From a virus (lineage: Duplodnaviria > Caudoviricetes): DNA of 59,269 nt. The notes below the pieces were generated by a model. It saw only the letters and a list, made by a program, of their open reading frames with translations. It ran no database searches and had not been told where the DNA came from. Both the position numbers and the translations under genes were made by a program. Positions within the stretch are counted from its first letter, which is position 1; each line of letters starts with the position of its first letter. The stretch is from positions 1 to 59,269 of the IMG/VR virus record IMGVR_UViG_3300010052_000141. One strand, written 5' to 3'. Below are positions 31,532 to 40,663 of the stretch, piece by piece.

Positions 31532-31879
31532 GTGAGACCAGCACTTCCAACGGCGTTATTCGTCCTGACGGACGACGAAAACAACGCGACGGTTTCATTC
31601 AATATCTGGGAAGCGTGGGTTGATGGCCGGGTGGTGGCCTTGGCACTGGGATCGAGCAGCCACCCACCGCTTCCGCCCGGGCCTATCATCGTGGCGCGAC
31701 AGCCGACCATTCCCTACGCGGCGTGGTTGGCCTGGGTGGACAGGTCGGTGCGCAGCTACGGGACGGTGAGTCTGAGGCCGCCGTTGCCACCTTCGAACCT
31801 GGCCCTGGTCGGCGCGGATCGAAAGACGACAATCCCGTTTTTCACGTGGTTGCGGTATGTGGACAAACTGCTTTCCTGA
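31532..31879 (+). CDS. Small virion-module protein with internal repeats
   Basis: Three P-LP...T..(F/Y)..W...VD repeats. Confidence 0.65.
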   Translation: MRPALPTALFVLTDDENNATVSFNIWEAWVDGRVVALALGSSSHPPLPPGPIIVARQPTIPYAAWLAWVDRSVRSYGTVSLRPPLPPSNLALVGADRKTTIPFFTWLRYVDKLLS

Positions 31880-31939
31880 TCCGGAAATTGTTCATTGCTC
31901 GGGGGTTAAATTGGGGCGCATCTAACTGATGGGCGGCCC

Positions 31940-32608
31940 ATGGCCTCGATTTTCGATCTTTTTAACAACGATAACGCACAGGCTGCCGCCGATGCGCAGA
32001 AGGCCGGTATCGCAGCCGGCCAAGCGCAGGCTACTGGCAATTTAAATCGTGGCCTAGACCTCGCAACCGGCTCCTACACCGCAGGTCTCCAGCCGTTTCA
32101 GCAGAACTACGCGACCGCGCAGGGCGGCCAGAGTGCTTATGCTGACGCGACGGGCGCAAATGGTCCGGAGGGCAACGCGCGCGCAGTACAGAATTTCCAG
32201 ACCGGCCCGGGCTATCAGTTTCAGTTAGATCAGGGCGCGCAAAACGTGATGCGCAATAAAGCCGCTACCGGCCAGCTAGCTTCGGGCGCGACTGACGTTG
32301 ATTTGCAGAAGCAAGGCCAGGGAATGGCCAATCAGTCTTGGCAGCAATACATTACCAACCTCGCGCCGTTTCTCGGGCAGGCTACCGCAAACGCTGGCGG
32401 TATTGGCACATTGCAGGCTGGTTTAGGCAATCTGCAAAACCAGAACCTTGGCCAGCAGGCCTCACTCAACTATGGCGCGGCCACCTCAGCAGGAAACGCG
32501 CAGGCAAATGCCGATTTGGCCAATAACGCGGCGGCGGCGAATATTTTTGGTGCGTTGAAGGGCGGCGTCGGTCTAGCCAGTAATCTCTTTGGCTTCCTCG
32601 GTCAGTGA
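31940..32608 (+). CDS. DNA ejection protein, gp7-like
   Basis: PGYQFQLDQG...ASGAT motif; Q/A/G/N-rich. Confidence 0.8.
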   Translation: MASIFDLFNNDNAQAAADAQKAGIAAGQAQATGNLNRGLDLATGSYTAGLQPFQQNYATAQGGQSAYADATGANGPEGNARAVQNFQTGPGYQFQLDQGAQNVMRNKAATGQLASGATDVDLQKQGQGMANQSWQQYITNLAPFLGQATANAGGIGTLQAGLGNLQNQNLGQQASLNYGAATSAGNAQANADLANNAAAANIFGALKGGVGLASNLFGFLGQ

Positions 32609-32620
32609 GGGGCTGAGCAA

Positions 32621-32812
32621 ATGCAGCCGTTCAGGCCGCCTCCGAAGCCGAACTATGCAGCGCCCCTCTTGCAGATGGGTGCACCTAATCCGAACGCCAA
32701 GCTGATTCCCCGGCTTCCGAACGGGGCAATCGATTATGCGGCGCTGGCCAAGATCGCGGCGCCACAGAACCAGCCGAAGCCGGTTTTTAGACTTGGAGGG
32801 CCGAATGGCTAG
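32621..32812 (+). CDS. Small Pro-rich hypothetical protein
   Basis: Fills the gap between the ejection genes. Confidence 0.45.
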   Translation: MQPFRPPPKPNYAAPLLQMGAPNPNAKLIPRLPNGAIDYAALAKIAAPQNQPKPVFRLGGPNG

Positions 32813-34364
32813 TTGGGACTCGCCAGTCGTACCTTCTCCGAGTGCTGCCAATTACGGCGCTCCCGTGCAGGACTTTTCCGGCTTCGCCAATCTTTTGCAG
32901 GATTTTGTAAAAGGTAGGCAGGCGGGCAGGGAAGAGCAGAAGGCAACGCTTTTCAGGAACGGAATTCCGCGCCAAGGTGGTGGAGAGACAGGGCCTTACG
33001 ACATTGACAAGATTGCGACCGAGGCGGCCAAGGTCGGCGGTGTGGAGTACGCTCGGCCATTTATCGACTTGCAAGTTCAATCACAGAATGCGGCAGAGGG
33101 CCGGAAGGCGGCTGAGGAAGCAGACAGGTTAGCAAGAGGTGGGGGCTCTACCCCACCCTCTAACGAATCAACCCCATCACCGCGTGTGAAAACACCAGTG
33201 CTCACCGCTGCCCCGTCGCCAGCTGCGACAGGCAATAGCGAGCAGGATACTATCCGTTCGCTTGCAACGGAGTCTTCAGGCGGCCAGGACGCGATGCCCG
33301 TGATCGGCTCCGCTGCGCGGGTATTGAGAATTAATCCAGACGCTCCGCTGACGCCGGATCAGGTCGTAAAAGTAAAAGAGTTTTTTGCAAACTCAGCAAA
33401 GCCGCCGGTAGCGCCGCCGCCGGTAGACCCAGCAACCGCCGATCCCAGCGAGCGTATAGCAAAGGGCTTTAGTGCTGCGCCGCTGCCGCAGGTCGCAGCA
33501 TTACAGGCGCAGGCGGACCGTTACGGGCAGGCCGAGCACCGTGTTACGCAGCAGGCGCTAACCGCGGCAGCTTCCGGTAATAAATTGCTGGAAGCAGAGC
33601 TTAGAACCAAGGCTGGATATTATCACGACTTGCAAAAAGGGATACTAGATCAGATCGCGAAGGCGAACGAAATGACGCCGGATATGAAAAATGCCGCAGC
33701 GTCTGGGCAGTCTCTGACTGATTATCAGAACCGGACCGATGAAAACACGACGCAGCGCGATATTCTAACCAAGAGTATCATCCCTCGAATTGACAAGTCG
33801 CAGGAAATGGCGACCGCGGCTCGTGATGATATCGACGCTATTCATCGCGCGCGCGCCGAACTGGATAAGAAGGGCGGCGTTTTCTCAGGGGCTTTCGCCG
33901 ATAAGAAGCTGTACCTTGCAAAGGCCGCTGAGGTGTTGGGCATTCCAAATGCCGACAAGATCAAGAATACCGAGGCTTACGGAGCAGCAATCGGCTCGCG
34001 TGTAGCCTCGATGGTTAAAGCTTTCGGCAGCGGCACCGCCATTTCGGACGGCGATAGGAGGTTCGCTGCCGCAATGGCCGGCGGCCAAATCACCCTTGAT
34101 GAAAAATCCATGCGCCGAATTCTAGAGATCGGTGAGAAAGCGGCACGCGGCAAGATCAAATATCACAACGAGTTCGTTGATAAGTCTGTGAAGGCCAATG
34201 ATGGGCTGAAGGCTGCCAAGGAGTCGTTCGTAGTTGAGGCGCCTAAGGAATACAAGAAGGAGGTGCCATCTGCTGTCAGTCCGCAAGAAGGCGATGTCAT
34301 ATTTAATGCCAAGACGGGTGAGCGCTTGAAGCTGCAGGGCGGCAAGTGGGCGCCGGTCACATGA
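32805..34364 (+). CDS. Putative DNA ejection protein
   Basis: GGAGGG before MASWDS; helical; GTAISDGD motif; position. Confidence 0.7.
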   Translation: MASWDSPVVPSPSAANYGAPVQDFSGFANLLQDFVKGRQAGREEQKATLFRNGIPRQGGGETGPYDIDKIATEAAKVGGVEYARPFIDLQVQSQNAAEGRKAAEEADRLARGGGSTPPSNESTPSPRVKTPVLTAAPSPAATGNSEQDTIRSLATESSGGQDAMPVIGSAARVLRINPDAPLTPDQVVKVKEFFANSAKPPVAPPPVDPATADPSERIAKGFSAAPLPQVAALQAQADRYGQAEHRVTQQALTAAASGNKLLEAELRTKAGYYHDLQKGILDQIAKANEMTPDMKNAAASGQSLTDYQNRTDENTTQRDILTKSIIPRIDKSQEMATAARDDIDAIHRARAELDKKGGVFSGAFADKKLYLAKAAEVLGIPNADKIKNTEAYGAAIGSRVASMVKAFGSGTAISDGDRRFAAAMAGGQITLDEKSMRRILEIGEKAARGKIKYHNEFVDKSVKANDGLKAAKESFVVEAPKEYKKEVPSAVSPQEGDVIFNAKTGERLKLQGGKWAPVT

Positions 34365-39463: not shown

Positions 39464-39472
39464 ACGCGCGTA

Positions 39473-39585
39473 GGCACGGCAGTCGAGGTACGGACAGGTG
39501 CGGCCTGACTAGGTGTGGATAGGCATGTCAAGGCAGGCGGGGCACGGCCCGTCGTGGTGAGGCCCGGCACGGCACGTTGTGGCAT
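39473..39585 (+). repeat. Non-coding GGY-NN pentamer array 2 (two guide-like blocks)
   Basis: GGCAC GGCA | GTCGA GGTAC GGACA GGTGC GGCCT GACTA GGTGT GGATA GGCAT GTCAA GGCA | GGCGG GGCAC GGCCC GTCGT GGTGA GGCCC GGCAC GGCAC GTTGT GGCAT. Confidence 0.9.
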
Positions 39586-39600
39586 CACCAGGAAAAACGG

Positions 39601-39630
39601 AAAAAGGCCCTTCACTGGGCCTTTTTCTTT
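39601..39630 (+). terminator. Rho-independent terminator, probably bidirectional
   Basis: AAAAAGGCCC-ttcact-GGGCCTTTTT followed by CTTT. Confidence 0.85.
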
Positions 39631-39691
39631 GCCTGGATTTTAGTTCACCACCCCACCTTAAAATTCCGCCGAAACCACAGGCGGATCGAAC

Positions 39692-40663
39692 TTGGCCGGC
39701 ACATTCCCAGGCGTCTGCAATACGCAACAAAATGACATAAACGGCCGACCTTTGGCCGGTGCTTTGTTGACGGTCTATCAAGGCGGCTCAACCAGCGCAC
39801 TAGCCGCGACGTTTCAAGATATTGGGCTGTTGCTGCCTTCGACTAACCCCTTAGTCGCCGACGCCTCGGGGCGCATTCCGTTGTTTTTCGTGAGCGACGG
39901 AAGCTATGGATTGAGACTGACAGATAAAAATGGCGTCCAGACGTCGGGCGGCTTTTTTTATCCGCAAATCCCCTCAATAGGCGCTTCATCGTCCGGCGGT
40001 GGCGGCTCACCGGTCGATCCGACAACGATTGCGCAGACAGGCGATTGGAAATGGCGCCCGAGCCAAGAAACGCTTGCGGGCTGGGTTCGACTTAACGGAC
40101 GCACGATCGGCAATGGATCGTCTGGGGCATCCGAGCGGGCCAATGCGGATTGTCAGGCTCTGTTCATTTATATTTGGACGACGTACAGCGACGCGATCTG
40201 CCCGGTTCTTGGAGGACGCGGAGCAAGTGCGCTAGCCGATTTCAACGCCGGCAAGCAAATCACGCTGCTCGATATGCGAGGCCGCGCGCCCTTTGGTCTT
40301 GACGATATGGGCAACGCCGCGCTCAGCGCGTTCACCAACGTCAATTTCACCAAGGGGAACGCGACGACGGGTGGAGCGTCGGGCGGAACCAATTCTACCA
40401 CCCTGACGGCTGCGCAAATCCCCGCGCATTCCCATCCAAACACCTTGAATGATCCGGGCCATAATCACGGCGTCCTGCTGACTATTACGAGTTTCCAGAC
40501 GGCTGGTTCACTAACCGCTTCGGCTAACCCTCAGTACGGTGTCAACACTGTGGCTAATGCTACAACCGGTATGACGATTACGAATGCCAACAACACTGGC
40601 GGCGGCCAAGCTTTCCCGTCTGTCCCGAGCGCCATGCTCGGTACGCACTTCTGGAAGCTGTGA
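39692..40663 (+). CDS. Tail fibre / tail-collar-like virion protein
   Basis: NPLVADASGR head-binding-like start; GWVRLNG...LLDMRGR...TLTAAQIPAHSH...DPGHNH collar and needle motifs. Confidence 0.82.
   Translation: MAGTFPGVCNTQQNDINGRPLAGALLTVYQGGSTSALAATFQDIGLLLPSTNPLVADASGRIPLFFVSDGSYGLRLTDKNGVQTSGGFFYPQIPSIGASSSGGGGSPVDPTTIAQTGDWKWRPSQETLAGWVRLNGRTIGNGSSGASERANADCQALFIYIWTTYSDAICPVLGGRGASALADFNAGKQITLLDMRGRAPFGLDDMGNAALSAFTNVNFTKGNATTGGASGGTNSTTLTAAQIPAHSHPNTLNDPGHNHGVLLTITSFQTAGSLTASANPQYGVNTVANATTGMTITNANNTGGGQAFPSVPSAMLGTHFWKL

What the first reader, a model, noticed from the sequence alone, without database searches (positions are those of the whole stretch)
31598..40177. Targeting logic: wobble-skipping guides against related phages, with self-mismatch
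All four decoded sites share four properties: they lie in virion-module genes; the NN string equals the coding strand, so the RNA would pair with template-strand DNA and not mRNA; the skipped base is codon position 3; and the resident copy differs by 1-3 amino-acid-changing mismatches, mostly conservative. Inference: the guides target homologous genes of competing related phages, synonymous changes cannot escape them, and the carrier avoids self-targeting. Alternative: imperfect self-targeting dampens the phage's own late genes, or the cassette came from another phage. No acquisition machinery is visible, so how guides are written is an open question.
Basis: inference. Interest (0 to 1): 0.92.

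Follow-up and report, generated by a model that had tools for sequence, protein, structure and literature searches.

The report
Phage VIPR guides aimed at sibling phages
This phage carries a VIPR system, a recently described RNA-guided gene silencer that reads two of every three DNA bases, and its four guides fit the virion genes of related phages lacking the system much better than its own copies.

Summary
Two arrays with a 5-nt period (38797-38907 and 39473-39585) flank a 173-aa gene, downstream of a 250-aa Cas7-like gene. Taken alone these self matches are no better than chance (shuffle P 0.09, 0.89, 0.81, 0.065).

The inference is nevertheless supported. At the orthologous sites of related phages the fit is near perfect:
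- g4 matches 19/20 bases in three loci.
- g1 matches 19/20 in one locus.
- g2 matches 14/14 over its first seven units in contigs of three runs.
- g3 fits 9 of 10 units at the amino-acid level.

Resident copies score 70-80%. One 57,252-nt sibling contig carries the g2 target, and a tail protein recorded on a contig of that length fits g3 and g4. That contig has no room for the island. Four other related records have no Vipr gene.

The system is VIPR (three 2026 bioRxiv preprints), which already report the one-base skip rule, wobble skipping, targeting of competing phages and lower self-match scores. Other agents of this scan had found VIPR on other DNA. This is a new member of a known kind. 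Its staggered array is aimed at sibling virion genes. How guides are written remains open.

The parts
38034..38786 (+). vipr: 250-aa Cas7/RAMP-like protein with a G-rich loop (GxGDFRQEKGKGxFG)
   Evidence: AlphaFold model pLDDT 84.5. Foldseek top hits are all Csm3/Cas7, E 4e-5. VIA-align Z 8.6-5 to Cmr4/Csm3/Cas7-11/Csf2. The family profile's only PDB hit at E<=1 is 36pp_D 'SUSP1 Vipr protein', E 3e-4. 80 viral loci encode homologues.
38797..38907 (+). vrRNA array 1: leader GGCAC+GGCT (38797-38805), guide g1 (38806-38859), GGCA (38860-38863), guide g2 (38864-38903), GGCA (38904-38907)
   Evidence: 5-nt G periodicity; segmentation. Related loci show the same leader and 4-nt separators.
38942..39463 (+). 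vap-like accessory gene, 173 aa
   Evidence: tblastn finds a homologue, on the same strand as vipr, in 64 of 80 loci that hold a vipr homologue. phrog_15946, function unknown. Model pLDDT 92. Only weak winged-helix-like matches, Z 5-6. No Foldseek hit at E<=0.001.
39473..39585 (+). vrRNA array 2: leader GGCAC+GGCA (39473-39481), guide g3 (39482-39531), GGCA (39532-39535), guide g4 (39536-39585)
39601..39628 (+). G+C-rich hairpin followed by a T run; likely terminator of the vipr-array1-vap-array2 unit
   Evidence: Read directly from the sequence. The terminator scan tool was not run.
33045..33076 (+). Resident (self) site of g1 in ORF 32736-34364: 16 of 21 bases
   Evidence: The orthologous site in L084 matches 19 of 20 informative bases and in L085 18 of 20.
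31598..31620 (+). Resident (self) site of g2 in ORF 31532-31879: 12 of 16 bases
   Evidence: Sibling contigs in runs X2, X3 and X4 differ at 31612-31614, which makes the first 7 units 14 of 14. The resident residue A is seen in 1 of 18 homologues.
40004..40032 (+). Resident (self) site of g4 in tail gene 39692-40663: 16 of 20 bases
   Evidence: Orthologous sites match 19 of 20 in L083, L084 and L085 and 18 of 20 in L086.
40148..40176 (+). Resident (self) site of g3 in the same tail gene: 14 of 20 bases
   Evidence: L084 matches 16 of 20. 4 of 121 aligned rows (the window's protein plus the 120 listed homologues) read DTQALYVYIW, compatible with 9 of 10 units.
39692..40663 (+). Tail protein with a collar-like region; resident homologue of the gene that g3 and g4 fit in related phages
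   Evidence: phrog_8763 tail protein, E 1.9e-44. tblastn with homologue P0002 hits 'tail collar domain' and 'tail fiber' genes in 4 GenBank phages.

Best explanation
The locus is a VIPR (Viral Interference Programmable Repeat) system. Its parts are a small Cas7-like Vipr protein, a Vap-like accessory protein and two staggered vrRNA arrays holding four guides.

Inferred from the published SUSP1 and P. fulva work: Vipr protomers bind one GGY triplet each and present the NN dinucleotides. These pair with double-stranded DNA in which every third base is skipped, and binding represses transcription.

Shown here: read by that rule, the four guides fit, in codon phase, orthologous sites in three virion-module genes of related phages. 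The genes are a 115-aa ORF, a ~500-aa protein and a tail collar protein. The fit to related phages is 85-95% of NN bases (g3 inferred from protein). The fit to the carrier's own copies is 70-80%, because those copies carry 4-6 mismatched bases (5, 4, 6 and 4 for g1-g4), all amino-acid-changing.

Inferred: the cassette lets this (pro)phage silence late genes of co-infecting or resident sibling phages that lack the cassette, while sparing its own genes. Synonymous drift in the rivals cannot break the match.
For: Fold and family:
- Foldseek and VIA-align give Cas7/Csm3/Cmr4.
- The only PDB sequence hit is SUSP1 Vipr, E 3e-4, over the G-loop.

Arrays:
- The 5-nt periodicity is unique to the two arrays.
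- 5-nt-periodic G arrays were detected in 78 of 80 loci that encode a homologue. In those I printed, they lie next to the gene.
- A Vap homologue is present in 64 of 80 loci.

Targets at DNA level:
- g4 matches 19/20 in L083, L084 and L085 and 18/20 in L086.
- g1 matches 19/20 informative bases in L084 and 18/20 in L085.
- 0 of 300 (g4) and 0 of 500 (g1) shuffled guides reached these scores in 154,767 nt of related DNA. Skip 0, 2 and 3 controls for g1 gave 15, 15 and 14.
- g2: contigs in 3 runs from 2 studies read different letters at 31612-31614, giving 14/14 over units 1-7.

Targets at protein level:
- 42 of 121 aligned tail proteins fit 9 of 10 g4 units, and 4 of 121 fit 9 of 10 g3 units. 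P0002, P0016 and P0056 fit both.
- 5 of 18 ORF-115 homologues fit 7 of 8 g2 units.

Convergence on one sibling:
- P0002's contig length (57,252 nt) equals that of the X2 contig that carries the g2 target.

Absence of the system in targets:
- There is no Vipr match in G001-G004, including the complete 57,886-nt G002.
- The X2 contig replaces window 32911-40040 (7,128 nt) by 4,143 nt.

Family precedent:
- A guide in L067 matches the vipr genes of 15 other loci 16/16, and 22 more 15/16. It does not reach the 88% listing cut-off in L067 itself.

Published mechanism and thresholds.
Against: - No expression, processing or binding data exist for this locus. All four runs were DNA contigs.
- g3's best target is inferred from protein sequence. 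Leu codons leave 17 or 18 of 20 bases, and the DNA could not be fetched.
- Full-length exact patterns of g3 and g4 had 0 hits in viral contigs.
- The last unit of g2, g3 and g4 fits no sampled allele.
- g4's self match (80%) meets the preprint's natural-target threshold, so some self-binding cannot be excluded.
- Over the whole family, 453 guides scanned against 660 kb of pooled flanks showed no general excess for skip 1 over skip 0, skip 2 or shuffles. Target evidence therefore rests on specific cases.
- The identity of P0002's contig with the X2 contig rests on equal length only.
- How much mismatch this Vipr type tolerates is unknown.
Confidence: 0.85

Rival explanations
1. Imperfect self-targeting: the guides' real function is to bind the carrier's own late genes weakly (70-80% match) and damp or time their expression. 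The better matches in relatives would be a by-product of homology.
For: Each guide's best in-window hit is in its own virion module, in phase. g4 reaches 80%, the threshold the preprint uses for natural targets. g3 and g4 both lie in the gene just downstream of the array.
Against: In-window scores are what shuffled guides reach (P 0.065-0.89). Relatives match 2-4 bases better at all four sites (g3 by inference from protein). At the g2 site the resident residue is unique among 18 homologues, and it is the residue that breaks the match. The preprints found no self hits at >=80% in their sets and report lower self-match scores as autoimmunity avoidance.
Confidence: 0.08
2. Imported cassette: the vipr-vap-array island came recently from another phage, and its guides reflect the donor's rivals. 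The relation to the carrier's genes would then be incidental.
For: The island is absent from related phages. VIPR cassettes sit in unrelated contexts: 9 of 10 window genes flanking the VIPR genes have no homologue in any of the 80 VIPR loci, and the tail gene has only weak hits in 2.
Against: All four guides fit orthologues of this phage's own three virion genes. For g2 the orthologue lies in a sibling about 95% identical in DNA over 31400-32787 (68 differences and 18 gapped letters in 1,388 nt). None of the four guides is present in the arrays of the 80 other loci. If the cassette was imported, it came from a very close relative or was retuned afterwards. That is compatible with the main explanation and does not compete with it.
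Confidence: 0.05
3. Chance: the arrays are protein-binding repeats whose NN spacers carry no information, like the spacers between TRAP-binding triplets, and the matches are best-of-genome coincidences.
For: In-window matches are within the null. There is no family-wide excess for skip 1.
Against: Scores of 19/20 at orthologous sites for two guides were never reached by shuffles. One contig appears to carry the targets of three guides. Wobble bases vary while NN bases are fixed. The L067 guide is perfect against many vipr genes. Published biochemistry supports the skip rule.
Confidence: 0.02

Closest known systems
VIPR systems (Vipr protein plus vrRNA). Exemplars: Escherichia phage SUSP1 and a Pseudomonas fulva prophage, type II. 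Sources: bioRxiv 10.64898/2026.04.26.720920 (Results, Discussion and three Methods sections read), 10.64898/2026.04.26.720927 (outline and passages) and 10.64898/2026.10.15.759431 (outline, section 8 and passages).
   Same: A small RAMP protein with a G-loop; GGY/NN pentamer guides; an adjacent accessory gene; phage-borne; the 1-nt skip rule with the skipped base at the wobble position; targets in competing phages; self matches lower than non-self matches.
   Different: The Vipr here is 250 aa against 202 aa for the SUSP1 chain. It is related only distantly: profile E 3e-4 over ~47 residues, and SUSP1 was not among the tblastn hits in phages. Guides are separated only by a 4-nt GGCA, so there is no room for the ~40-60-nt structured tail of type II. 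This looks like the 'staggered array' architecture that the preprint mentions. The targets here are virion structural genes orthologous to the carrier's own, not satellites, lysis-lysogeny regulators or VIPR loci. The type (I-VII) could not be assigned because the supplements are closed.
Class 1 CRISPR-Cas backbone subunits (Cas7 family: Csm3, Cmr4, Csf2)
   Same: RRM/RAMP fold with a thumb and a G-rich loop. The protein is expected to polymerise along a guide RNA.
   Different: No CRISPR repeats, no spacer structure and no other cas genes in the window. The period is 5 nt with 2 informative bases, not 6 nt with 5. No adaptation genes.
TRAP (trp RNA-binding attenuation protein) binding sites: (G/U)AG triplets with 2-3-nt spacers (recalled, not from a call)
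   Same: A conserved triplet plus a 2-nt variable spacer in a 5-nt period.
   Different: In TRAP sites the spacers carry no information. Here the spacers spell phage genes. The protein fold is RAMP, not TRAP.

Membership tests
VIPR | Vipr protein: a small stand-alone RAMP (RRM core, thumb, G-loop) related to published Vipr | tested here: met
   Foldseek and VIA-align top hits are Cas7-family. The profile of 30 homologues hits only PDB 36pp_D 'SUSP1 Vipr protein', E 3e-4, across the G-loop.
VIPR | vrRNA: tandem GGY/NN (YNNGG) pentamers, at least 4 units, beside vipr | tested here: met
   Four guides of 8-11 units in two arrays. Periodic arrays were detected in 78 of 80 homologous loci.
VIPR | Targets obey the 1-nt skip rule, usually with the skip at the codon wobble position | tested here: met
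   g4 matches 19/20 and g1 19/20 at orthologous in-frame sites. Skip 0, 2 and 3 controls for g1 gave 14-15, and 0 shuffles reached the observed scores. g2 matches 14/14 over 7 units.
VIPR | Adjacent vap accessory gene | tested here: met
   A 173-aa ORF lies between the arrays, and tblastn finds a homologue in 64 of 80 loci. Which of vap1-6 it is could not be tested because the supplements are closed. The winged-helix-like resemblance is only Z 5-6.
VIPR | Expressed, processed vrRNAs that co-purify with Vipr and repress transcription of the target | not testable with these tools
   Only DNA contigs were available.
VIPR type II (SUSP1 / P. fulva clade) | Each vrRNA ends in a conserved structured 3' tail (a pseudoknot in SUSP1) | tested here: not met
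   Guides follow each other after a 4-nt GGCA, and only a terminator hairpin follows g4. This fits the 'staggered array' class mentioned, so I do not file the locus under type II.
CRISPR-Cas (type III/IV-like) | A CRISPR repeat-spacer array and further cas genes (Cas5, Cas10/Cas8, Cas6, Cas1-2) | tested here: not met
   No such repeats were found. The 10 ORFs of 30081-40663 had no Pfam hit at all. Rfam gave only 2 tRNAs.

The most novel reading that the evidence does not exclude
The guides are tuned to the sibling alleles of the carrier's own virion genes, and the carrier's unusual residues at the footprints are self-escape substitutions. Examples are Ala for Gln at 31613-31614, seen in 1 of 18 homologues, and Ser/Ile and Cys/Phe/Ile in the tail collar region. 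Under this reading, carrying a VIPR cassette drives amino-acid divergence of structural proteins between sibling phages, and guides may originate from copies of the lineage's own ancestral genes. That would bear on the open question of how guides are written without adaptation genes.
Probability: 0.3. Interest if true: 0.6.

Novelty: new member of a known kind. Interest (0 to 1): 0.35.

Why it matters
VIPR was first described in 2026, and its natural targets are known mainly for two enterobacterial and pseudomonad clades. This locus adds a distant Vipr with a staggered array. All four of its guides can be assigned to targets: three late or virion genes of sibling phages that lack the cassette.

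Each guide comes with a resident allele and a target allele of the same site. That makes a ready-made natural experiment on how many NN mismatches this kind of system tolerates. It is also a clean case for asking how guides arise when no adaptation genes are present.

It does not change the picture of what VIPR is.

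Tried and rejected
Before finding the literature, I considered three readings of the arrays: TRAP-like binding sites, two-tier G-quadruplex tracts and small ORFs. I dropped them once the RAMP fold and the cross-phage matches appeared.

Searches that gave nothing useful:
- Pfam gave nothing for 10 ORFs.
- Rfam gave only 2 tRNAs.
- Tandem Repeats Finder and the repeat finder did not report the arrays.
- Two paper searches on 'pentanucleotide / periodicity / GGC / phage' and 'Cas7-like / phage-encoded / 5-nt' found nothing relevant. 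The lead to VIPR came from earlier notes of this scan, and I then checked it in the preprints.

Family-wide tests showed no general skip-1 excess:
- 1,421 unique 7-unit windows (from 1,667 found) gave 21 exact hits at skip 1, against 13-15 at other skips and 7-12 for shuffles.
- 453 guides scanned against 660 kb showed no difference in mean best score.

Attempts to find better targets or their DNA:
- Exact full-length g3 and g4 patterns: 0 hits in viral contigs.
- The search for related loci with the window's tail protein gave only 2 loci.
- P0056 in metagenome contigs gave 1 locus at 54% identity.
- P0002 in genome contigs gave none. In viral contigs it gave 3 loci at 49-51% identity.
- The DNA of the best g3 allele was therefore not obtained.
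- The homologue search for the ~500-aa protein returned only itself.
- A Vap search against PDB sequences gave nothing meaningful, and Foldseek gave no hit at E<=0.001.
- Run X1 holds short exact pieces of the window and may be its source, so I do not count it as support.
- The read-laying table of other letters was cut (90 rows not shown), so the g3 site in the X2 contig was not seen.

Supplements of the three preprints are closed. Their data S3 and S4 and their supplementary tables may already list this clade, its type or similar structural-gene targets.

Full report
WHAT IS THERE

The window is a 59,269-nt virus record with a virion module on the + strand. PHROGs names a head-closure protein at 30081-31529, a major-head-like protein at 34346-35716 and a tail protein at 39692-40663.

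Between the head-like and tail genes lie a 250-aa ORF (38034-38786) and a 173-aa ORF (38942-39463). Each is followed by a non-coding stretch with a strict 5-nt period. All 9 of the 50-nt windows in the record that have G at 10 of 10 positions spaced 5 nt apart lie in 38797-38925 or 39477-39590.

Written in register, the units read G-G-Y-N-N. A simple dynamic-programming segmentation gives a leader (GGCAC plus GGCT or GGCA) and then blocks of pentamers separated by a 4-nt GGCA:
- g1, 38806-38859: 7 units, a 4-nt unit, 3 units.
- g2, 38864-38903: 8 units.
- g3, 39482-39531: 10 units.
- g4, 39536-39585: 10 units.

A G+C-rich hairpin with a T run follows g4 (read).

THE OBSERVATION

| Guide | Site | Score |
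|---|---|---|
| g1 | 33045 | 16/21 |
| g2 | 31598 | 12/16 |
| g3 | 40148 | 14/20 (tied with an out-of-phase site at 5759) |
| g4 | 40004 | 16/20 |

All four are on the + strand and in frame with long ORFs, so the free base is codon position 3.

These scores are what chance gives. Of 1000 order-shuffled versions of each guide, a share of 0.092, 0.894, 0.808 and 0.065 did as well. Decoding with 0 or 2 free bases gave 13-15. The best hits of shuffled g1, g3 and g4 were in phase in 28-38% of cases, because the dinucleotides resemble codon positions 1-2. So the description is accurate, but its support from the window alone was weak.

WHAT THE PROTEIN AND ARRAYS ARE

The search for related loci found 80 viral loci that encode homologues of the 250-aa protein at 42-85% identity. 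Arrays with a 5-nt G period were detected in 78 of the 80, and some are 1.4-2.4 kb long. In the loci I printed, the arrays lie beside the gene.

A model built from 30 homologues (pLDDT 84.5) matches only Cas7-family backbone subunits:
- Foldseek gives Csm3 and Cas7 of types III and VII, E down to 4e-5.
- VIA-align gives Cmr4, Csm3, Cas7-11 and Csf2, Z 8.6-5.

Earlier notes of this scan pointed to 'VIPR', and I checked that in the literature. The preprint 10.64898/2026.04.26.720920 (Results, Discussion and three Methods sections read) describes the following:
- Vipr, a stand-alone RAMP found mostly in phages.
- vrRNAs made of 9-16 GGY/NN pentamers.
- A '1-nt skip rule' of DNA recognition, shown by binding and GFP-repression assays.
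- Skipped bases that fall on the wobble position.
- Natural targets in competing phages and satellites, accepted at >=80% NN match.
- No self hits at that level.
- Seven types, some with 'staggered' arrays.

The structural preprint (passages) shows one protomer per repeat, with the GGY bases sequestered and the NN bases presented. The third preprint shows that codon-periodic targeting prevents escape, and that self-match scores are lower than non-self scores for guides aimed at rival vrRNAs.

A profile of the window's protein family has a single hit at E<=1 among PDB sequences: 'SUSP1 Vipr protein' (36pp_D), E 3e-4, across the G-loop. The locus is therefore a VIPR system. It is distant from type II. 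Its guides abut one another, with no room for the structured 3' tail of type II.

The 173-aa protein has a homologue in 64 of 80 loci. It folds confidently (pLDDT 92). It shows only weak winged-helix-like resemblance (Z 5-6, within background) and nothing in Foldseek at E<=0.001. I call it Vap-like, but I could not say which vap it is.

DO THE GUIDES HAVE REAL TARGETS?

Tail gene (g4 and g3). A homologue search on residues 85-185 of the tail protein found 1,597 proteins, of which the best 120 were listed. I aligned those 120 with the window's protein, giving 121 rows:
- 42 rows read GTPVDPTTV followed by F or A, compatible with 9 of 10 g4 units. The resident reads GSPVDPTTIA.
- 4 rows read DTQALYVYIW, compatible with 9 of 10 g3 units. 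The resident reads DCQALFIYIW.
- P0002, P0016 and P0056 carry both.

At DNA level, in loci reached through an alignment of these proteins:
- g4 matches 19/20 in L083, L084 and L085, and 18/20 in L086.
- g3 matches 16/20 in L084.
- In 154,767 nt of related DNA, 0 of 300 shuffled g4 guides exceeded 17.

Among the four g4 targets, 8 of 9 wobble bases vary and none of the 18 NN bases does.

The ~500-aa protein (g1). In L084 the orthologous codons fit units 1-7 and 9-11 at 19 of 20 bases, and in L085 at 18 of 20. The 4-nt unit still occupies one codon. 0 of 500 shuffles reached this score, and skip 0, 2 and 3 gave 15, 15 and 14.

The 115-aa ORF (g2). Of 18 homologues, 5 read FNIWEQW and fit 7 of 8 units. 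The resident Ala at the sixth position is unique. Laying contigs of four public runs on 31400-40400 shows that contigs in X2 (57,252 nt), X3 (37,356 nt) and X4 (1,954 nt) are about 95% identical to the window over 31400-32787. They differ at 31612-31614, which makes units 1-7 of g2 a 14/14 match.

Convergence on one sibling. The X2 contig has the same length as the contig on record for P0002. If they are the same record, one sibling genome carries the targets of g2, g3 and g4.

That contig jumps from window position 32911 to 40040 with 4,143 nt in between, where the window has 7,128 nt. This leaves no room for the 3.9-kb island. A Vipr profile search found nothing in the four related records G001-G004, one of which (G002) is complete at 57,886 nt with terminal repeats. 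G002 shares 37% of the window by tblastx but only 9% of 35716-39690.

CONTEXT IN THE FAMILY

- None of the window's four guides occurs in the arrays of the other 80 loci.
- 9 of 10 window genes flanking the VIPR genes have no homologue in those loci. The cassette sits in different phage backgrounds, with guide sets specific to each.
- One guide in L067 is a perfect 16/16 match to a conserved stretch of the vipr gene in 15 other loci, and 15/16 in 22 more. It does not reach the 88% listing cut-off against L067 itself. This is an anti-VIPR guide of the kind the preprints describe.
- Across 453 guides and 660 kb of flanks there is no general skip-1 excess. Most targets evidently lie outside the 4-kb flanks that I held.

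HOW IT MOST LIKELY WORKS

Shown here:
- The parts of the system.
- The gapped code, through natural targets.
- Codon phase.
- Better non-self than self matches at all four sites (g3 at the amino-acid level).
- Absence of Vipr from the related records that I could search.

Inferred from the published systems:
- Vipr polymerises on each guide.
- It binds double-stranded DNA of the sibling's late genes.
- It blocks their transcription.

Inferred:
- The resident copies escape because of 4-6 mismatched NN bases (5, 4, 6 and 4 for g1-g4).
- The benefit is exclusion of sibling phages during co-infection or from a lysogen.

Not resolved:
- The mismatch tolerance of this type. g4's self match is exactly 80%.
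- Whether the last unit of g2-g4, which fits no sampled allele, is read.
- How the RNAs are processed.
- How guides are created.

NOVELTY

The logic is in print, in the 2026 preprints read as stated above, and other agents of this scan had already filed VIPR loci on other DNA.

This locus is a new, distant member with a staggered array. Its modest added value is a complete set of guide, target-allele and self-allele triples in structural genes of sibling phages.

Noticed in passing
L067:1221-1260 versus vipr genes, e.g. L010:4403-4425 and L064:4385-4407: An 8-unit guide in L067 matches a conserved stretch of the vipr gene (the SAD-x-N-K-T-P-D-I region) 16/16 in 15 other loci and 15/16 in 22 more. 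It does not reach the 88% listing cut-off in L067 itself. This is an anti-VIPR guide with a self-mismatch.
   Followed up: partly
L064:5403-7882; L027:3968-5372; L063:3473-4908: Some relatives carry 1.4-2.4 kb of uninterrupted pentamer arrays, which amounts to dozens of guides. That is far more than the four guides here.
   Followed up: no
window 38841-38844: g1 contains a 4-nt unit (GGTC). On the target side the match continues in frame on both sides, so the short unit still counts as one codon step. It may be a tolerated or a recent 1-nt deletion.
   Followed up: partly
window 22274-22308 and 37846-37880: A 35-nt direct repeat (74% identity) lies just upstream of vipr and in another intergenic stretch near 22.3 kb. 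It may be a shared promoter or operator.
   Followed up: no
Mycobacterium and Gordonia phages, e.g. MN234179.1:32471-33061: tblastn finds 27-30% identical homologues of the Vipr-like protein, annotated 'hypothetical protein', in 30 actinobacteriophage records. I did not check whether they have arrays.
   Followed up: no
window 32911-40040: This 7.1-kb block is replaced by 4.1 kb of other sequence in sibling contigs of runs X2 and X3. The block holds most of the ~500-aa protein, the head-like gene, three small ORFs, the VIPR cassette and the 5' part of the tail gene. It is a variable region between conserved head and tail modules.
   Followed up: partly
window 12471-12545 and 21383-21458: Two phage-borne tRNA genes: Thr (TGT) and Gln (TTG).
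   Followed up: no
L069:5200 -> L067:1918-1946; L071:5996 -> L064:8499-8530; L074:4921 -> L069:5602-5627: Further cross-locus guide matches at 89-95% of NN bases (19/20, 20/22 and 16/18) between different VIPR-bearing phages. I did not identify the target genes.
   Followed up: no
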